A stretch of DNA of 64,000 nucleotides, from NCBI GenBank assembly GCA_000004985.1, contig GG738913.1; one strand, given 5' to 3'. Of this stretch, positions 19,419 through 27,255 are shown piece after piece. The stretch's first letter is position 1, and the number at the start of each line of letters is the position of its first letter. The DNA is from Naegleria gruberi (taxonomy: Eukaryota). The position numbers were made by a program, and so were the translations under genes. The notes under the pieces were generated by a model. It saw only the letters and a program-made list of their open reading frames with translations, made no database searches and was not told where the DNA came from.

Positions 19419-22400
19419 TTAAGCCAAGTTAAGTTGTCCAATCAATACAATACAAATCAACACTAAATATACCAATGAAATTGCAGTTGCTGATGCTTCA
19501 GACACACGTTGACTTTTGGATGGTGTCACATTTTTGCTTCCAGAAGTTTTTGGAGTAGTGATACTCTTGCTTGGTTGAGGAATTGAGCCACCAGAAGAAG
19601 TGGATGGTGTTGGAGTAACTGTCTGTTCACACAAACCATTAACCAATGATTCTCCTTGAGAACAAGTTAAGGAAACTTTTCTAATTCTATTGTTCGAATC
19701 ATCTGAAATGTATAATTCACCTACTGAGCTCACTGCCAAACCTGTTGGAAAGTTCAATTGAGCACTTGTTGGTAAAGACCCATCTCCGCTCAATCCTGCA
19801 ATTCCATTTCCAGCACTTGTGCTAATAGTTCCATTGACATTCAATTTACGAATTCTATGGTTATACGAATCAGCAATGAACAAATCACCAGTTGAGCTAA
19901 CAACTAGGCCACTTGGATAATTCAATTGATAAAGTGATGCATTATTTCCTTCACCATTATATCCAGCTGTTCCATTTCCAGCAATTGTTGTAATTATTCC
20001 ATTCAATGAGACCTTACGAATTCTATGATTATTAGTGTCAGAAATCAGCAATTCTCCATTGGAATTGACTGCTACATAGCTTGGATTATTTAATGTGGCA
20101 CTTGTTGCAAGACCACCATCTCCACTAAAACCTGCAACTCCACTTCCAGCCACAGTGCTAATATCACCATTGGTTGCAATCTTTCTAATTCTATGATTAT
20201 TCGAATCAGCAATGAAAATTTCACCACTTTTTGAGCTAATTGCAAATGATTGAGAATTCAAATAAGAGTTAACTGCAGAAGAGCCATCGCCCAAACCACC
20301 AGCAACTGTACTAATCTTTCCACTAGAAAGTTTACGAATTCTTGAATTGAAAGAATCAATAATGAAAACGTCACCGTTCGAATTGGAAGAAACTCCACTT
20401 GGATAATTGAAACATGTACTTGTGGCTGCCAATCCATCACCATTGAAACCAATCGCTCCACTTCCAGCAATGGTTGAAATGTATCCATTCGCAGCTACCT
20501 TTCTAACTCGTTGATTGTATTGGTCAGAAATATAAATTTCTCCAGAGTTTCCAATAGAAATGCTGAATGGGAAATTGAGCTTGGCATTGGTAGCTAATCC
20601 ATTATCTCCACTGAATCCAGAAGTTCCAGTTCCTGCAACAGTTGTAATGATACCAGAGGATGAAGAAACCTTTCGAATTCTATGATTACCAGAATCGGCA
20701 ATATAAATATCATTATTAGTCAAATTGACTGCTACTGCAAATGGAACGAACAATTGAGCATTAATGGCCAACCCATTATCTCCGCTAAATGTTGCCTTAT
20801 ATGCAACTGTTCCATTACCAGCAATTGTTGAAATATAACCACTAGTAGAAACTTTACGAATTCTATTATTACGAGTATCGGTGAAAATCAATTCACCATT
20901 TGAATTCATTGCAATTCCATTTGGATAATGGATTTTGGCAGATATGGCCAGCCCACCATCTCCACTGAATCCAGATTCTCCACTTCCTGCCACAGTTGAA
21001 ATGATACCACCAGTTGAAATCTTTCTAATTCTGTGGTTTTCAGAATCGGAAAAGTAAATTTCACCACTCGAGCTCACTACCACTCCTTTTGGATTATTCA
21101 ATTTGGCACTTGTAGCAGAGGAGCCATCTCCACTGTAGCCACTTGTGCCAGTTCCAGCAATTGTTGTAATGTAACCATTCGAAAGTTTACGAATCTTGTG
21201 ATTGGAAGAATCTGAAAAGTAAGAGTCACCATTAGAAGAGATGAAAATAGAGTTTGGATTATGTAATCTTTCAGTGATTGCTAACCCATCGCCACTGTCA
21301 GCTCCAATAGCACCAGTTCCTGCTACAGCTGTCAAACTTGATTTGATTTTTGACAAATACGAACCAAGATACATGACATATACTTCATTATTATAATAAC
21401 TAACTGCAGAACCCAAAGGAGTTACTGAACTAAGAGTGGAAATTACATTAGTTGACAAATCAACTCTTCTAACTTTTCCATTATCAGTAAATAAAAGATT
21501 ATTTCCATAAATAATAGGATTTCCATTTGGAGAAACAAATGATTTGCTTGCTTGAACATCCTCTCCAAAACTTGAGGTACCAGCAAATGTTGAAATCACC
21601 CCACTTGCAGAAATCTTTCTAATTCTATGATTATACGAATCTGAAATGAAAATTTCACCTACAGAGTTGACCACAATTCCAGAAGGCAACCACAATTGAG
21701 CATTAACGGCCAAACCACCATCTCCACTCAATCCAACAGTTCCTGTTCCTGCAATTGTAATAATGGTACCATTTGTCAAAATCTTTCTAATACGATTGTT
21801 AACAGAATCTGAAATGAAAATTTCACCATTCGAATTGACTGAAATTCCACTTGGATAATTCAATTGAGCATTCTTTGCCAAGATGGAATCTCCATTAAAA
21901 CCAGCAGTTCCAGTTCCTGCAACTGTAGTGACAATACCACTATTCGAAATCTTTCTAATTCGATGATTTCTTGAATCTGCTACAAATAGTTCACCATTCG
22001 AATAGAATGCTGCTCTTGGTGCATTGAATTTGGCATTTGTGGCCTGTCCATTATCACCACTGTATCCAGCAGCTCCAGTTCCTGCAATAGTTGTGATATT
22101 TCCAATGGAGGAAACCTTTCGAATAACATTATTAGAAGTATCGACAATAATAACTTCACCACTTGAGGAATTAAGAGCTAAACCGTATGGAGAGTTTAAA
22201 AGCGCATTCGTAGCAAGACCCCCATCACCACTATAACCATAGGATGAGGCAGTTCCAGCAATGGTTGAGATTTTTCCATTTGTAGAAACCTTTCGAATAA
22301 CATGATTGGAGGTATCAGCAATGAAAGTTTCTCCCAAAGAATTAACAATTACACCATAAGGAAAGTTAATTTCGCTCTGTGTAGCCAATGCACCATCTCC

Positions 22401-22709
22401 ACTAAATGAAGAAGTACCAACGCCTGCAAAAGTTGAAACATCACTAGACGAAACCTTTCTAATACGCTGATTAAACGTATCAGCAATAAGAATTTCACTA
22501 TTCAAGCCTAATGCTATCCCATACGGATATCTCAAGAGAGCATTCCCTGTCATTCCATCACCAATTTTACTTCCACCTCCAATCAATGTTGAAATTTTGA
22601 CAGTTGGCAAGGAAGTTGAATGGACATGTGGAAAATTCATCATCACAACGATGAATGTAATGAGCAACCATATGGTAACGAGAATTTTCAATGGTTTGCG
22701 TGAAATCAT
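19419..22709 (-). CDS. Giant NHL-repeat protein (about 20 NHL units) with a signal peptide and C-terminal TM anchor; teneurin/tenascin-like surface protein
   Basis: Signal peptide MISRKPLKILVTIWLLITFIVVMM. Iterated units of the form IADxxNHRIRKVSxxGxISTIAGTGxxGxSGDGGLATxAxLNxPxGV. C-terminal Ser/Thr/Pro stalk and hydrophobic tail LVYLVLICIVLIGQL. Stop is TAA. Confidence 0.85.
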   Translation of the reverse strand: MISRKPLKILVTIWLLITFIVVMMNFPHVHSTSLPTVKISTLIGGGSKIGDGMTGNALLRYPYGIALGLNSEILIADTFNQRIRKVSSSDVSTFAGVGTSSFSGDGALATQSEINFPYGVIVNSLGETFIADTSNHVIRKVSTNGKISTIAGTASSYGYSGDGGLATNALLNSPYGLALNSSSGEVIIVDTSNNVIRKVSSIGNITTIAGTGAAGYSGDNGQATNAKFNAPRAAFYSNGELFVADSRNHRIRKISNSGIVTTVAGTGTAGFNGDSILAKNAQLNYPSGISVNSNGEIFISDSVNNRIRKILTNGTIITIAGTGTVGLSGDGGLAVNAQLWLPSGIVVNSVGEIFISDSYNHRIRKISASGVISTFAGTSSFGEDVQASKSFVSPNGNPIIYGNNLLFTDNGKVRRVDLSTNVISTLSSVTPLGSAVSYYNNEVYVMYLGSYLSKIKSSLTAVAGTGAIGADSGDGLAITERLHNPNSIFISSNGDSYFSDSSNHKIRKLSNGYITTIAGTGTSGYSGDGSSATSAKLNNPKGVVVSSSGEIYFSDSENHRIRKISTGGIISTVAGSGESGFSGDGGLAISAKIHYPNGIAMNSNGELIFTDTRNNRIRKVSTSGYISTIAGNGTVAYKATFSGDNGLAINAQLFVPFAVAVNLTNNDIYIADSGNHRIRKVSSSSGIITTVAGTGTSGFSGDNGLATNAKLNFPFSISIGNSGEIYISDQYNQRVRKVAANGYISTIAGSGAIGFNGDGLAATSTCFNYPSGVSSNSNGDVFIIDSFNSRIRKLSSGKISTVAGGLGDGSSAVNSYLNSQSFAISSKSGEIFIADSNNHRIRKIATNGDISTVAGSGVAGFSGDGGLATSATLNNPSYVAVNSNGELLISDTNNHRIRKVSLNGIITTIAGNGTAGYNGEGNNASLYQLNYPSGLVVSSTGDLFIADSYNHRIRKLNVNGTISTSAGNGIAGLSGDGSLPTSAQLNFPTGLAVSSVGELYISDDSNNRIRKVSLTCSQGESLVNGLCEQTVTPTPSTSSGGSIPQPSKSITTPKTSGSKNVTPSKSQRVSEASATAISLVYLVLICIVLIGQLNLA
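19800..22450 (-). repeat. Intragenic tandem array of roughly 165-170 nt units encoding the NHL repeats
   Basis: The protein periodicity of about 55 aa (NHRIRK...IAGTG...GDGG) repeats about 20 times. The nucleotide copies are diverged. Confidence 0.6.
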
Positions 22710-22907: not shown

Positions 22908-23957
22908 ATGGCAAATTGTAACAATGTTTCCCACCTCAACAGGTCAATCCTGGTGACAATTCTTCTATCCTCCCTTCTGTTCACATGTTTCGTCTCACTT
23001 TCCCACTCAACCATAACCAAGACGAAACTCTACGGTTTAAACTTTGCAGGTGCAGAATACGGATCAATGCCAGGTCGTTACGGCTACGATTATATCTATC
23101 CATCTGCCTCTGATATTAGTTTATATGTTGCCACAATGAATTTGAATGTAATTCGTCTTCCTTTCAAATGGGATAGACTTCAACCGAAACATGGTCAACC
23201 ATTAGATTCTTTGGAATTAGCAAGAATAGACGCAGTTGTTTCAGTATGTGCTACTCATGGGGTGTCTGTTCTATTGGACCCTCATAATTATGGATATTCT
23301 GTGAATGGATTGATTGGCACGTCAGATGAGCCAACTGAAAATTTCACAGATTTTTGGATTCGTCTAGCTCAGCATTATTTAGGATATGATAATGTGATTT
23401 TTGGAATTATGAATGAACCGCATACACATACACCACTTCAATGGGCAGATATTGCTCAAACAACTTTGAATGCTATTAGGTCAACTGGTGCTACTCAATT
23501 GGTTCTTGTTCCTGGAACTTTTTATACTGGAGCTCATTCTTGGACATCTAATGTTCTTGGACAATCAAATGCAGAAGCATTGAAGAATATTAAGGATTCT
23601 GCCAATAATTTCATGTTTGAAATGCATCAATATTTAGACAGTGACAATTCAGGAACTCATTCGACATGTGTCAGCTCAACAATTGGTTCGACAAGATTGA
23701 AAACTACTACTGATTGGTTACGTCAAAATGGATTTAAGGCATTTTTAGGTGAATTTGGAGCTTCTGATGATACAGTTTGCATGCAAGCTCTTTATGACAT
23801 TTTGCAATTTATGGGAAATAATACTGACGTTTGGCATGGATGGACTTATTGGAATGCTTCTCCATGGAGTACAACTTATATTTATGCTGCTTATCCCCCT
23901 GATGAGAATCAACATCCTCAAGTTTCAATCTTGAAAGAAGCAATGGGAGTAGTTTAA
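22908..23957 (+). CDS. Secreted glycoside hydrolase family 5 endo-beta-1,4-glucanase (cellulase)
   Basis: Signal peptide. LYGLNFAGAEYG. The catalytic acid-base motif IFGIMNEPH and the nucleophile motif FLGEFG both follow GH5 spacing. Stop is TAA. Confidence 0.85.
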   Translation: MANCNNVSHLNRSILVTILLSSLLFTCFVSLSHSTITKTKLYGLNFAGAEYGSMPGRYGYDYIYPSASDISLYVATMNLNVIRLPFKWDRLQPKHGQPLDSLELARIDAVVSVCATHGVSVLLDPHNYGYSVNGLIGTSDEPTENFTDFWIRLAQHYLGYDNVIFGIMNEPHTHTPLQWADIAQTTLNAIRSTGATQLVLVPGTFYTGAHSWTSNVLGQSNAEALKNIKDSANNFMFEMHQYLDSDNSGTHSTCVSSTIGSTRLKTTTDWLRQNGFKAFLGEFGASDDTVCMQALYDILQFMGNNTDVWHGWTYWNASPWSTTYIYAAYPPDENQHPQVSILKEAMGVV

Positions 23958-24109
23958 TAATTTTAAAAATTATTAACAATAAAATTTACAATAAAAACTT
24001 GAATGTAAACTAAAATATCCATATTCGATATGAAGAACTATCAACTATTTAATGTCCACTTAAAAACATAAAGATGAATAATTCCAATAATTGTTTATTA
24101 TTTGAAGTT

Positions 24110-25402
24110 TTACAAGAGTAAAACTGCAATCATGACAAATAAAGTCATAACAGAAATGACAGATCTAACTGCAGAGCTACCTCTTGAAGTTGTTGCAATG
24201 ACCTTATCAGTATATTGAACAGAGTATTCCTTTCTGTCCATTTCAAGAGTCCATCCCTTATCGATTTCAGCCTTACCAGCTTCAACAATCCATGGCTTTA
24301 AGACATAGCTTCCTTCAGTTGGTGAGTTTTGAATCTTGACAGACATGGAGAGAGTACCAGTACCAGGAGCAACACTCTTTTGAATTGCCTTACCAAACCA
24401 AGAATAATCTGGTAATCTCAAAAAGTCAACTACAATATCCACATTGACATTGGCAGAATAATCAACATCAACTGTAACAGTTTGACTATTCAATGGAATT
24501 TTAACTGGTGGAGTCTTAATACGAATGGAATTACCAACCAATGGTGCATTATTATTATTGGTTGATCCAGAATTTGAACCAGTTGATGGAGCGGGTGTAG
24601 GAGTAACTGGGTTACCTGTAGATGTAATTTGAGCATCCCAACATGAGGTATATGGAGCACTTCCAGCATTGAATACCCATCTCCATTGGAAAGCATAACG
24701 ACCCTCAGGAGTGTTAGCTGGAATTGTGAAACAATTAGTACACAATGCCTTATCCATATTTTCACAGAATTTTGGACAATTTTGGAATCCTTTACCACCA
24801 CCATTTTCCAAAGTATTTGGAGCAACGTTATTTCCCCAATCTTGCAATAATTTCCAATCATTAGCACCTGGATCACTGGTTGGATTCAAACTAGAGTAGT
24901 AAATCTTGTTTCCATTATCTGGAATGTATTGGTTGGTGCATGAAGCAGCAACGTGATTCTTGGCTGGATATGCAAGACAAACCTTTTGTCCTGGTCTGTA
25001 TGTGGCCATTGGATATGATGATCTGTAAAAAAATCATGTGGTCAACCAGGACATGTTAAAATTGCAGAGAAACTTACGTATAGAAAGATTGATAGTTTCC
25101 ATTGGTAAGACCATATTTACAACTAGTATCTTGGTGATTGTATCCAGTATCTCCACCGAAAGCGCTGTTAATAGCTATTAGAAAGTTGAAGAAATAAATA
25201 TTCGAAATGTAAATATATTCGAATTAAATGAACTTTACGTACCAGCATGTGCAGACCAATTTCTTGGACGTGCTCTACATTTAGAAGCACTGTAATATTG
25301 ACCGTTTTCTTCAGTATAATCAGTGCAGTCAATCCATGAGTGAGCATAGACAGCAGACAGACACAAGCTCAACACGAATAATGAAAGAATAACTTTGTGC
25401 AT
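24110..25402 (-). CDS. Three-exon gene for a secreted Cys-rich protein whose predicted mature N-terminus is His (LPMO/X325-like copper-protein candidate), with a Thr/Pro linker and C-terminal hydrophobic (GPI-like) tail
   Basis: Exons at about 25402-25243, 25174-25078 and 25022-24110. The introns are 68 and 55 nt, with GTACGT and GTAAGT donors and AG acceptors. Signal peptide MHKVILSLFVLSLCLSAVYA, then HSWIDC. TPTPAPSTGS linker. Tail VISVMTLFVMIAVLLL. Stop is TAA. Confidence 0.6.
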
Positions 25403-25944
25403 TTTTTTCCTTGATGATTCGTATTAAAAAGAAGCAATCGATGGATTATAATGTCACACCTTCATAATTAAATCGGGTGGCTACTTGACATCTTGTGCTC
25501 ATCAACATACCACCCGCAAGAATCCTTGCCAAACATTGTTTCAGTGTGCTTATTGATATTCACTTTTCAATTATTACAATAAAATATTTGAATTGATTTG
25601 GAAGAGACATTGTTAATTATTGTAGTTGATATAATTGATATTGAACGAAAATTATAAAGATGAAACCTGTTATCTGTTAATATCTTTGAACGGTTGGATA
25701 TTTTGGCCCATGTTTGGGTTCTCATTGTTAAATTCTAACAAACGTCTGGATAAAATAGTTGTGTGGCTAAACCCTTCGGAAATTTCAATGCTGATTTCGT
25801 GATTTGAAAGCACTTAATCTAGAGTTGAATATCCAGAAATTAATAATGGAATGGTATGTAGATTCCATTTATTCCATTGTATAAGATTTACAGTAGTAGC
25901 AGATGATGAAGGTGTGAAATCTTATTGTGTGTTTAATCCATCAT

Positions 25945-27255
25945 TCATAGAGACTCAATGAAACTGTCCATTGTTTCAGAGAGTGGAAGTACAATAGTGT
26001 TGCTTGACTTGTTTTGAATCCAATCCTTCAAAACAGGTGGTAAATTAGAATCATTATAGAGTTGGAGGAAAATGTCTGGAATGATGAATAGGATTGGAGT
26101 GTTCTTCTTGATATCATTCAAGAGTTTGTTCATTGGGAATCTTGAGAGTGGGACACCTAACACGACAACCAGATCACAATTTTCAAAATCACTTCTCTTA
26201 TTATCTGAAATGGAGGATGGATAGCTCTCTCCCAACATGAGAATATTTGGTTTCAGACTGCAATCCTTCTTGGCCATTTGTTCACATTTTCCCTTCTTAT
26301 TGGTTGGAACATCCTTGTTAGGGAACATGGCAGCTCCTGTTTTGAAATCAAAAGTCTTTTCACAAGTTGAGCAAGTAAAACTATCAAGTGTTCCCAAGCA
26401 ATTAATAACTTTTTCATCTTCAAATGGTAATTTTTCAATACTTTCACTGTAAATCCTTTGAATTTTCTCTTGTTCATCGAGACTCATTAAAAACTTCAAT
26501 ACCTTGCTTGGCTTTTTATAAATTCTACTCCATCCATATGTTAATTTCTCCAAATAATTCAATAATGGTCTTGGATTTTCCACAAATCGATCAAAATTAA
26601 ATAAATCATCAGTACTTCCTTCATTAACTTCCAAATCCTGTTTCATATCTTGCTTTCTAGTCTTGATTTGTTCAAGTTGAAAATTCTGAATTTCCTCAAC
26701 GGATGCATATTCAATTCCCTCAACAACTTTCTCAGCCTTATGCTCAATATTATAGAGAATGTGTAAATCACCAAAAACATGACTCGAATGCACAGCATTT
26801 GTCTGTTGATAATACTTGATTGTTGCCTTTTCAAAAACATCCTTCGGAAGCACAGCTTGTGTCGTTATCGTCGGTCCAGTCACTACAATAATCTTCTCCT
26901 TTTCCTTTAGTAGATTTCTAGCCTTTTCCAAGAGAGTAGAAGAAGAAGACTTTTCCTCTTGAATTTTCCTCTTTAATTGATCCGTTAGTGATTGTTTTTG
27001 TATTCTTTTCTGAGAAGTTGTTGTATAATAGCCTTCTTCATTATTCTCTTCTTCTATTGTTGTTGTTGCTTCTAATTCTTCTTTGAAAGTTGTTCTTGTT
27101 CTTGTGGAGGAAAAAGCCTTCACTGATGAGTGAGAGAAAAATCTCGTTTGTTGAATTAATGATGATGATGAAGAAGAAAATAATGTTCTTGTTCTTCTTG
27201 TGGATTTGATGATGATTTTATTGTTGGATAAAATTGAGGATGGAATTTTGAACAT
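25945..27255 (-). CDS. Sirtuin (Sir2)-family protein with an N-terminal mitochondrial-type presequence and an atypical NAD-binding motif
   Basis: Ser/Arg/Thr-rich N-terminus. The zinc ribbon CSTCEKTFD...KCEQ..C followed by LKPNILMLGES...DLVVVLGVPLS matches sirtuin C..C...C..C, LKPDVVFFGE and DLLLVIGTSL. The canonical GAGIS is replaced by VVTGPTIT. Stop is TGA. Confidence 0.55.
   Translation of the reverse strand: MFKIPSSILSNNKIIIKSTRRTRTLFSSSSSSLIQQTRFFSHSSVKAFSSTRTRTTFKEELEATTTIEEENNEEGYYTTTSQKRIQKQSLTDQLKRKIQEEKSSSSTLLEKARNLLKEKEKIIVVTGPTITTQAVLPKDVFEKATIKYYQQTNAVHSSHVFGDLHILYNIEHKAEKVVEGIEYASVEEIQNFQLEQIKTRKQDMKQDLEVNEGSTDDLFNFDRFVENPRPLLNYLEKLTYGWSRIYKKPSKVLKFLMSLDEQEKIQRIYSESIEKLPFEDEKVINCLGTLDSFTCSTCEKTFDFKTGAAMFPNKDVPTNKKGKCEQMAKKDCSLKPNILMLGESYPSSISDNKRSDFENCDLVVVLGVPLSRFPMNKLLNDIKKNTPILFIIPDIFLQLYNDSNLPPVLKDWIQNKSSNTIVLPLSETMDSFIESL

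What the first reader, a model, noticed from the sequence alone, without database searches (positions are those of the whole stretch)
22908..25402. Secreted His1 protein (LPMO/X325-like candidate) immediately downstream of, and convergent with, a GH5 cellulase
Signal-peptide cleavage after AVYA is predicted to expose His as residue 1 (HSWIDC...), the hallmark of the copper histidine brace. The protein is Cys-rich, has a Thr/Pro linker and a C-terminal hydrophobic tail suggesting a GPI anchor, as in X325/Bim1-like proteins. N-terminal HSW does not match the canonical AA9-AA17 starts, so this may be a new or divergent family. Adjacency to a cellulase hints at polysaccharide remodelling.
Basis: inference. 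Interest (0 to 1): 0.6.

Follow-up and report, generated by a model that had tools for sequence, protein, structure and literature searches.

The report
Surface-anchored copper oxidase of uncharacterised family
A Naegleria-like amoeba encodes a secreted, probably lipid-anchored protein with the fold and copper-binding residues of the polysaccharide-cleaving LPMO enzymes, but it belongs to an uncharacterised protist family whose other members are fused to cellulases and cellulose-binding modules.

Summary
A three-exon gene on the minus strand (25402..24110) encodes a 387-aa protein. It has a signal peptide ending AVYA, then HSWIDC, a Cys-rich domain, a Thr/Pro/Ser/Asn linker, a second beta-sandwich domain and a C-terminal hydrophobic tail. 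It converges on an intact GH5 endoglucanase gene (22908..23957).

- **Copper-site residues:** His follows the signal peptide in 102 of 106 homologues. A second His is invariant (106/106) and a Tyr is present in 104/106.
- **Sequence:** Profiles reach only AA11, weakly. That alignment places the conserved Tyr on AA11's axial Tyr. Pfam gives only DUF7492.
- **C-domain:** It resembles a porphyran-binding CBM (PDB 8WAE; Pfam PF27624).
- **Family:** About 600 sequence clusters, from Heterolobosea, oomycetes and other protists. Every carbohydrate module fused to members is cellulose-related (CBM1, CBM2, CBM49, GH5, GH45).
- **GH5 adjacency:** It is not conserved in N. fowleri or N. lovaniensis.

Verdict: a likely GPI-anchored LPMO of an uncharacterised family, probably acting on cellulose. 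Copper binding and activity are untested.

The parts
24110..25402 (-). Whole gene for the LPMO-like protein: three exons and two introns, 387 aa.
   Evidence: Gene model assembled from the sequence. Both introns have canonical GT..AG ends. tblastn of the product recovers the three exons. The product is colinear with the orthologues P0002, P0003 and P0004.
25343..25402 (-). Signal peptide, residues 1-20 (MHKVILSLFVLSLCLSAVYA).
   Evidence: Hydrophobic leader with Val at -3 and Ala at -1. Equivalent leaders of 12-27 residues with a small -1 residue precede His in 102 of 106 homologues. No predictor was run.
25340..25342 (-). Codon CAC for His21, which is His1 of the mature protein and the proposed N-terminal ligand of the histidine brace.
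   Evidence: His in 102 of 106 aligned homologues, within the motif H-S-W-[ILV]-x-C.
24629..25342 (-). LPMO-fold catalytic-type domain, residues 21-215. The span includes introns 25238..25165 and 25077..25023.
24953..24955 (-). Codon CAC for His107 (mature His87), the proposed second histidine of the brace, in the motif P-x-K-N-H-V-A.
   Evidence: Invariant in 106 of 106 homologues. It aligns weakly with the His of the 'SATHGGGSC' segment of the AA11 chain 7p3u.
24650..24652 (-). Codon TAT for Tyr208 (mature Tyr188), the proposed axial tyrosine, in the motif W-x-W-x-F-N-(x)n-Y-x-x-C.
   Evidence: Tyr in 104 of 106 homologues. It aligns with the Tyr of 'EMYMNC' in AoAA11 4mah. I count that residue as position 140, which I recall as the axial Tyr140 of AoAA11.
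24539..24628 (-). Thr/Pro/Ser/Asn-rich linker, about residues 216-245.
   Evidence: Composition read from the sequence. pLDDT is below 50 at residues 230-240 of the full-length model.
24209..24538 (-). C-terminal beta-sandwich domain, about residues 246-355. It is CBM-like and corresponds to Pfam PF27624 'Porph_assoc'.
   Evidence: phmmer to PDB 8wae gives E=2.2e-6. Foldseek to 8wae_A/B, described as 'novel porphyran-binding carbohydrate binding module', gives TM 0.75-0.80 at 26-28% identity. PF27624 is precomputed on the orthologues. pLDDT is above 90 across the domain.
24113..24202 (-). Probable GPI-attachment signal, residues about 358-387: small residues (RGSS), a short spacer, then an uncharged hydrophobic tail that ends the protein.
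   Evidence: Mean Kyte-Doolittle hydropathy of the last 15 residues is 2.9, with no charged residue. All heterolobosean orthologues have the same feature, and 16 of 106 family members overall. No GPI predictor was run.
22908..23957 (+). Convergent neighbour: an intronless GH5 endo-beta-1,4-glucanase-type gene, 349 aa, with an N-terminal hydrophobic leader.
   Evidence: PF00150 E=3.2e-56. The closest solved chains are cellulases 5hpc and 4w7u (E about 1e-83) and fungal EGI/EG-II endoglucanases. NEP and GEFG motifs are present in the translation.

Best explanation
The gene encodes a cell-surface copper enzyme of the lytic polysaccharide monooxygenase (LPMO) type. It belongs to an uncharacterised eukaryotic family that overlaps Pfam DUF7492 and is most similar to AA11.

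Proposed mechanism:
1. The signal peptide is cut after Ala20, which makes His the first residue (inferred).
2. The amino group and side chain of His1, together with His87, hold one copper ion in a histidine brace, with Tyr188 in the axial position (inferred from homology).
3. The reduced copper uses H2O2 or O2 to oxidise a glycosidic carbon and break a polysaccharide chain (inferred).
4. A flexible, probably O-glycosylated Thr/Pro/Ser linker joins this domain to a beta-sandwich related to a bacterial carbohydrate-binding module.
5. A C-terminal GPI signal tethers the whole protein to the outer face of the amoeba's plasma membrane (inferred).

The most likely substrate is cellulose or another beta-1,4-glucan, either in the organism's own cyst wall or in food. 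This is inferred from domain fusions in the family and from the neighbouring GH5 endoglucanase.

Shown here: the gene model, the conservation of the three residues, the LPMO fold, the CBM-like fold and the fusions. Not shown: copper binding, catalysis, substrate, the cleavage site and the anchor.
For: - Gene model and product.
- His directly after the signal peptide in 102 of 106 homologues; His107 in 106 of 106; Tyr208 in 104 of 106. The same motifs occur in 90 of 111 further cluster representatives.
- Sequence link to AA11: profile hits at E=1.8e-5 (4mah) and 5.5e-3 (7p3u) align Tyr208 with the AA11 Tyr.
- Perfect C99/C181 covariation supports the modelled sandwich.
- The C-domain is related to a porphyran-binding CBM.
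- GPI-like tails are conserved in the orthologues.
- Cellulose link: among 217 members scanned, the carbohydrate modules found were CBM1 (17), GH5 (3), GH45 (1), CBM49 (1) and CBM2 (1). Precomputed Pfam marks one more GH5 fusion, P0096, which was not in those scans.
- In the fusions the LPMO-like domain is N-terminal, as a His1 enzyme requires.
- The fused GH5 of P0050 is closest to solved endo-1,4-beta-glucanases, among them Acidothermus cellulolyticus E1.
- The window GH5 is an endoglucanase type.
Against: - No biochemical data exist for any member, and no paper on the family was found.
- The copper-site geometry could not be measured, because the tools do not expose model coordinates.
- The N/Q/E-x-F/Y second-sphere motif of other LPMOs is not conserved here. 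The position two residues before the Tyr is Asp in 48, Ala in 21, a gap in 14, Pro in 11 and Thr in 6 of 106 sequences.
- An invariant Asp (mature Asp99) of unknown position could be an extra ligand, as I recall for X325.
- GPI anchoring is also typical of the non-catalytic X325/Bim1 proteins.
- The GH5 adjacency is absent at the orthologous loci of N. lovaniensis and N. fowleri. The convergent arrangement also implies no shared promoter.
- The nearest solved relative of the C-domain binds a sulfated galactan, not cellulose.
- AA11, the nearest family, is chitin-active.
Confidence: 0.6

Rival explanations
1. It is an X325/Bim1-like copper-binding protein. On this reading the GPI-anchored histidine-brace protein captures or hands over copper at the cell surface for uptake or homeostasis and does not cleave polysaccharides.
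For: - It has the same overall layout as X325 proteins as I recall them: signal peptide, His1 domain, Ser/Thr-rich linker and GPI signal.
- An invariant Asp (mature Asp99) could in principle be an additional copper ligand.
- The usual Gln/Glu-x-Tyr second-sphere motif is not conserved.
Against: - Members of this family are fused to CBM1, CBM2, CBM49, GH5 and GH45, which makes sense for polysaccharide-active enzymes rather than copper carriers.
- This protein itself carries a CBM-like domain.
- The only sequence-level link is to the catalytic family AA11.
Confidence: 0.2
2. It is a chitin-active LPMO, functionally like AA11, AA10 or AA15. It would act on chitin in the cyst wall or in prey such as fungi rather than on cellulose.
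For: - AA11, the nearest family by both sequence and structure, is chitin-active (substrate from my own knowledge and PMC8615602).
- UniRef automatically names the N. fowleri and several Saprolegnia and Aphanomyces homologues 'Chitin-binding type-4 domain-containing protein'.
Against: - No chitin-specific module (for example CBM14, CBM18 or CBM5/12) was found among 217 members. All carbohydrate fusions found are cellulose-related.
- No member matched Pfam LPMO_10 at E<=0.01.
- The family is abundant in oomycetes, whose walls are mainly cellulose and beta-glucan (established knowledge).
- The neighbour here is an endoglucanase.
Confidence: 0.15
3. It is a non-enzymatic surface lectin or adhesin. 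On this reading the LPMO-like and CBM-like sandwiches only bind glycans, for example for attachment to prey or substrate, and the N-terminal His is conserved for structural reasons.
For: It has two beta-sandwich domains on a glycosylated stalk with a membrane anchor. LPMOs were themselves first classed as binding modules (CBM33; PMC13431639).
Against: Conservation of exactly His1, the second His and the axial Tyr across about 600 sequence clusters, with His always placed directly at the signal-peptide junction, is the signature of the copper site and not of a lectin.
Confidence: 0.05

Closest known systems
AA11 lytic polysaccharide monooxygenases (fungal, chitin-active; AoAA11 4MAH/4MAI, AfAA11 7P3U/9EXJ)
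   Same: - The only family reached by sequence profile (E 1.8e-5 to 5.5e-3).
- Shared C-terminal motif G-x-Y-T-x-x-W-x-W-x-F-N...Y-x-x-C, which contains the axial Tyr.
- His1 directly after the signal peptide.
   Different: - Only 17-19% identity over 126 aligned residues.
- The profile match covers only the last 40-70 residues.
- The N-terminus is H-S-W-x-x-C. I recall that AA11 has an Ala two residues before the second His, where this family has K-N-H.
- The Cys pattern differs (8-10 Cys).
- The family occurs in Heterolobosea, oomycetes and other protists, and no named fungal sequence was found.
- Its fusions point to cellulose rather than chitin.
Pfam DUF7492 (PF24320)
   Same: This is the only Pfam-A match: E=7.7e-7 and 29 bits against a 27-bit cut-off, covering residues 19-138, which includes the His1 region. 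83 of 217 family members match it.
   Different: The match covers only the first half of the 265-position model and is marginal, and most members score below the threshold. The window protein's family is therefore at the edge of, or sister to, the sequences Pfam modelled. The entry carries no functional annotation, and no paper mentions it.
X325 / Bim1 LPMO-like copper proteins (LaX325, 6IBH)
   Different: It is a lower structural match than five catalytic families, with no sequence-level match. This family carries CBMs and is fused to cellulases.
AA15 and AA17, the LPMO families known from oomycetes and protists
   Same: They share the LPMO fold and a His1 start. AA15 is reported in oomycetes, algae and protists (PMC5823890), and AA17 in oomycetes (PMC10952591).
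   Different: - No Phytophthora sequence appears among the 120 best hits listed of 218.
Porphyran-binding CBM of a bacterial beta-agarase (PDB 8WAE) / Pfam PF27624 Porph_assoc
   Same: The C-terminal domain matches at E=2.2e-6 by sequence and TM 0.75-0.80 by structure, with 26-28% identity. PF27624 is precomputed on the orthologues.
   Different: Here it is attached to an LPMO-like domain in a eukaryote rather than to an agarase in a bacterium. Its ligand is unknown, and at this identity level specificity cannot be transferred.

Membership tests
LPMO superfamily (histidine-brace copper proteins with an Ig/FnIII-like beta-sandwich) | N-terminal His exposed by signal-peptide cleavage | tested here: met
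   AVYA|HSW follows the -3/-1 rule. His lies directly after the leader in 102 of 106 homologues and in 90 of 111 further representatives. Cleavage itself was not measured.
LPMO superfamily (histidine-brace copper proteins with an Ig/FnIII-like beta-sandwich) | Second conserved His, plus an axial Tyr or Phe | tested here: met
   His107 in 106 of 106 and Tyr208 in 104 of 106 homologues. Tyr208 aligns with the AoAA11 Tyr in the HMM alignment. His107 aligns weakly with the His of the 'SATHGGGSC' segment of the AA11 chain 7p3u.
LPMO superfamily (histidine-brace copper proteins with an Ig/FnIII-like beta-sandwich) | LPMO-type beta-sandwich fold | tested here: met
   [not shown]
LPMO superfamily (histidine-brace copper proteins with an Ig/FnIII-like beta-sandwich) | The three ligand residues are juxtaposed in space and bind one copper ion | not testable with these tools
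LPMO superfamily (histidine-brace copper proteins with an Ig/FnIII-like beta-sandwich) | Oxidative cleavage of a polysaccharide | not testable with these tools
   This needs an experiment. The only indirect support is the fusion of family members to cellulases and cellulose-binding CBMs.
CAZy AA11 | Significant sequence similarity over the whole catalytic module to characterised AA11 enzymes | tested here: not met
   The profile hits cover only about 40-70 C-terminal residues (E 1.8e-5 with A1, 5.5e-3 with A3). Structural alignment gives 17-19% identity. The dbCAN AA11 model was not available.
CAZy AA17 | Sequence or close structural similarity to PiAA17C or PsAA17 | tested here: not met
   [not shown]
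CAZy AA15 | Sequence similarity to TdAA15A-type enzymes | tested here: not met
   [not shown]
CAZy AA16 | Sequence similarity to AaAA16-type enzymes and the conserved Q-T/N-Y motif (PMC6420742) | tested here: not met
   [not shown]
X325 / Bim1-like | Similarity to LaX325, with an additional Asp copper ligand and no polysaccharide activity | tested here: inconclusive
   [not shown]
Pfam DUF7492 (PF24320) | Score above the Pfam gathering threshold | tested here: met
   29.0 bits against a 27-bit cut-off, E=7.7e-7. Only model positions 2-128 of 265 are matched, so the match is marginal.
GPI-anchored proteins | N-terminal signal peptide plus a C-terminal omega region of small residues, a short spacer and an uncharged hydrophobic tail that ends the protein | tested here: met
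   ...TSRGSSAVRSVISVMTLFVMIAVLLL has tail hydropathy 2.9 and no charged residue. The feature is conserved in all heterolobosean orthologues. This is a heuristic only: no dedicated predictor was run and there is no biochemical test.

The most novel reading that the evidence does not exclude
This protein and its roughly 600 relatives form a new CAZy auxiliary-activity family of cellulose-active LPMOs. The family is confined to protists (Heterolobosea, oomycetes and other stramenopiles). In amoebae such as Naegleria, the enzyme would sit on the cell surface via a GPI anchor and a previously eukaryote-unknown CBM, and would remodel the cyst wall or attack cellulosic food together with GH5 endoglucanases.
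Probability: 0.4. Interest if true: 0.75.

Novelty: new variant of a known kind. Interest (0 to 1): 0.58.

Why it matters
Each new LPMO family so far (AA11, AA13, AA14, AA15, AA16, AA17) has widened the known substrates and biological roles of copper-dependent polysaccharide oxidation. This family has several features that would make it worth characterising.

- It has a distinct signature: H-S-W-x-x-C at the N-terminus, K-N-H at the second His, and W-x-W-x-F-N...Y-x-x-C at the Tyr.
- It is absent from the characterised families tested here.
- It is found in free-living and pathogenic amoebae, including an N. fowleri orthologue, and in animal- and plant-pathogenic oomycetes (Saprolegnia, Aphanomyces, Pythium insidiosum, Albugo).

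If active, it would be the first LPMO described in Heterolobosea. It would also be a candidate player in cyst-wall or cell-wall dynamics of organisms that are hard to kill in the encysted state. Natural fusions to GH5, GH45 and CBM1 give a directly testable substrate hypothesis. The attached PF27624 domain would extend a newly described bacterial CBM type to eukaryotes.

Tried and rejected
- **AA18:** Papers list LPMO families up to AA18 and cite Santos et al. 2025. From memory this is the bacterial CelOCE enzyme, which is unrelated to a His1 brace, so I did not pursue it.
- **Full-length model in Foldseek:** The results were dominated by multi-domain Ig-like proteins (RbmA, macroglobulins). 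They were not informative for the N-domain, so I modelled that domain alone.
- **Conserved synteny with GH5:** Not found in N. lovaniensis or N. fowleri.
- **Window GH5 versus the fused GH5:** The window GH5 is only distantly related to the GH5 fused in P0050 (26% identity over 114 residues).
- **Homologue search with the C-domain alone:** It returned nothing because the query shared too few exact words.
- **Exact-sequence lookup of the GH5 product:** Not on record, so the source organism could not be named beyond 'Naegleria-like heterolobosean'.
- **Paralogues:** No second copy of the gene lies in the window.
- **Literature:** Searches for DUF7492, for LPMO with Naegleria, for 8WAE, and for structure-based LPMO mining found nothing on this family.
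- **Naegleria cyst-wall composition:** The papers found make only general statements about free-living amoebae and deal mostly with Acanthamoeba. The cyst-wall role is therefore a suggestion only.
Full report
**1. What is in the sequence**

The window is AT-rich (about 33% G+C) and eukaryotic, with short spliceosomal introns. On the minus strand, an ATG at 25402 opens a reading frame that the ORF list breaks into pieces. Reading the DNA and joining the pieces at canonical splice sites gives three exons:
- Exon 1: 25402..25239
- Exon 2: 25164..25078
- Exon 3: 25022..24110

The introns are GTAAAG...CAG and GTAAGT...CAG, and the coding sequence of 1164 nt encodes 387 aa. tblastn of the product back onto the window recovers exactly these three segments and finds no second copy. 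The product is colinear across both junctions with annotated proteins of Naegleria lovaniensis (68% identity), Willaertia magna (63%) and N. fowleri (64%). The source is therefore a Naegleria-like heterolobosean. A 2.2-kb ENA metagenome contig is 99% identical to this locus.

**2.

- **Leader and cleavage site.** The leader MHKVILSLFVLSLCLSAVYA is followed by HSWIDC, with Val at -3 and Ala at -1. No signal-peptide predictor was available, so I used comparative evidence. In an alignment of 106 homologues, 102 have His at this column. In each, it comes directly after a 12-27 residue hydrophobic leader ending in a small residue (A, G, S, C or T; one Q).
- **Wider support.** Among 111 further cluster representatives, 90 carry H[STA]WxxC, mostly 13-25 residues from the start.
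- **Cysteines.** The domain is Cys-rich, with eight conserved Cys. One additional pair, C99/C181, is either Cys/Cys (57 sequences) or absent from both positions, and never a single Cys. That is the signature of a disulfide.
- **Linker.** A Thr/Pro/Ser/Asn linker follows and has low model confidence.
- **C-terminus.** The protein ends in an uncharged hydrophobic tail preceded by small residues (RGSS). All heterolobosean orthologues share this GPI-type signal.
- **GH5 neighbour.** The ORF at 22908..23957 matches PF00150 at E=3e-56 and keeps the NEP and GEFG catalytic motifs. Its closest solved relatives are endo-beta-1,4-glucanases. It converges on the candidate gene with 152 bp between the stop codons.

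**3. What the N-terminal domain is**

- **Pfam.** The only match is DUF7492 (E=7.7e-7), just above threshold and over half the model.
- **Conservation.** His21 is nearly invariant, His107 is invariant and Tyr208 is nearly invariant. The conserved motifs are P-x-K-N-H-V-A, G-F-Q-N-C-P-x-F-C and Y-x-F-x-W-x-W-x-F-N...Y-x-x-C.
- **Sequence profiles against the PDB.** A profile of the family hits only AA11 LPMOs: 4mah at E=1.8e-5 with A1, and 7p3u at E=5.5e-3 with the trimmed A3. Both hits lie over the C-terminal motif. Counting along the 4mah alignment, Tyr208 falls on residue 140 of AoAA11, which I recall as its axial Tyr. A weaker segment pairs His107 with the His of the 'SATHGGGSC' segment of the AA11 chain 7p3u.
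- **Structure model.** The AlphaFold2 model of mature residues 1-200 is confident (pLDDT 89.3, pTM 0.88).
- **Foldseek.** The top 50 hits are all AA9, AA10 or AA11 LPMOs, with TM about 0.4-0.5.

The domain therefore has the LPMO fold and all three copper-site residues. It is roughly equally distant from several families and nearest to AA11. It meets the superfamily criteria I could test. It fails the membership tests for AA11, AA15, AA16 and AA17.

**4. The C-terminal half**

Residues about 246-355 are a well-modelled beta-sandwich. The domain matches PDB 8WAE, deposited as a novel porphyran-binding carbohydrate-binding module of a beta-agarase. The match is E=2.2e-6 by sequence and TM 0.75-0.80 by structure, at 26-28% identity. 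The orthologues carry the precomputed Pfam domain PF27624 'Porph_assoc'. The full architecture is therefore:

signal peptide, LPMO-like domain, linker, CBM-like domain, GPI signal.

At this level of identity the ligand of the CBM-like domain cannot be inferred.

**5. The family and its hints about substrate**

An exhaustive HMM search of 1.84 billion cluster representatives finds 603 proteins at E<=1e-3 and 369 at E<=1e-10. Named members come from these groups:
- Heterolobosea: Naegleria, Willaertia, Acrasis
- Oomycetes: Saprolegnia, Achlya, Thraustotheca, Aphanomyces, Pythium, Albugo
- The stramenopile alga Phaeothamnion
- One bryozoan genome

Most members are from metagenomes or metatranscriptomes. 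None is functionally annotated. Some are auto-named 'Chitin-binding type-4 domain-containing protein'.

Scanning 217 members against Pfam found these carbohydrate modules: CBM1 (17), GH5 (3), GH45 (1), CBM49 (1) and CBM2 (1). Precomputed Pfam marks one more GH5 fusion, P0096, which was not in those scans. All of these modules are cellulose-associated. In the GH5 fusions the LPMO-like domain is N-terminal, directly after the signal peptide. The fused GH5 of P0050 is closest to solved endo-1,4-beta-glucanases, among them A. cellulolyticus E1. This is the main argument for cellulose or a related beta-1,4-glucan as substrate.

The local GH5 adjacency is weaker evidence. The genes are convergent, so they share no promoter. 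The orthologous loci in N. lovaniensis and N. fowleri have housekeeping neighbours and no GH5. The other neighbours in the window are also unrelated: an NHL-repeat protein, a Sir2-like protein, and F-box and BTB proteins.

**6. Mechanism proposed**

1. Cleavage before His21 exposes His1.
2. His1 (amino group and imidazole) and His87 chelate copper, with Tyr188 axial.
3. The reduced copper, with H2O2 or O2, oxidises C1 or C4 of a glycosidic bond.
4. The CBM-like domain and the GPI anchor keep the enzyme at the cell surface and near its substrate.

The fold, the residues and the architecture are shown here. Copper binding, catalysis, substrate, cleavage site and anchoring are inferred.

The main rival is an X325/Bim1-type copper-handling protein. 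Its layout is very similar, and an invariant Asp could be an extra ligand. The cellulase and CBM fusions and the lower structural score argue against it, but I could not inspect the model's copper site. A chitin substrate, as for AA11, is a second alternative within the LPMO reading.

**7. Novelty**

No paper in the searchable library mentions DUF7492 or links LPMOs to Naegleria. The current LPMO families are AA9-AA11 and AA13-AA18. The family has been noticed only by automatic pipelines, as a Pfam DUF and through the UniRef 'chitin-binding type-4' names.

I rate it a new variant of a known kind: an uncharacterised family within the LPMO superfamily, with an unusual CBM-like partner and a protist distribution. 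The dbCAN/CAZy models could not be run, so an existing CAZy assignment of the oomycete members cannot be fully excluded.

Noticed in passing
window 25416-25676: Compared with a 99%-identical ENA metagenome contig (L003, ERZ929261), the window carries an extra 261 bp. The insertion starts 14 bp upstream of the start codon of the LPMO-like gene, so it is an indel polymorphism in the 5' flank or promoter region.
   Followed up: no
window 19419-22709 (-): A 1096-aa ORF encodes an NHL/teneurin-NHL repeat protein (PF01436 E=4e-95). It has an N-terminal hydrophobic leader, a Ser/Thr/Pro-rich stalk and a C-terminal hydrophobic tail, so it is another probable surface-anchored protein. It lies directly upstream of the GH5 gene.
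   Followed up: partly
window 22908-23957 (+): The GH5 gene has no intron and is very similar to solved chains 5hpc and 4w7u (E about 1e-83). From memory these are a bacterial (Xanthomonas) cellulase. They score higher than the fungal GH5_5 enzymes, so a bacterial origin by horizontal transfer is possible but was not tested.
   Followed up: no
protein P0164 (Watersipora subatra, bryozoan): A family member with 47% identity to the N-domain is annotated on a 61-Mb scaffold of an animal genome. All other named members are protists. Possible explanations are horizontal transfer, contamination or a wider distribution.
   Followed up: no
window 25945-27255 (-): The upstream neighbour is a 436-aa ORF with a partial Sir2-family match (E=4e-14, residues 214-370). 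It has long low-complexity N-terminal sequence and appears unrelated to the finding.
   Followed up: no
L001 6001-7614 and L002 6001-7713 (N. lovaniensis, N. fowleri): The orthologues sit between a Torus/RRM gene and a ribosomal L18-family (PF17135) gene in both species. That synteny is conserved between them but is not seen around the gene in this window. Either the gene has moved in this lineage or it is a paralogue.
   Followed up: partly
family alignment A1, columns of residues 99 and 181: A fifth disulfide is present in 57 of 106 members, including this protein, and is replaced mostly by Thr/Thr in the rest. This splits the family into two structural subtypes.
   Followed up: partly
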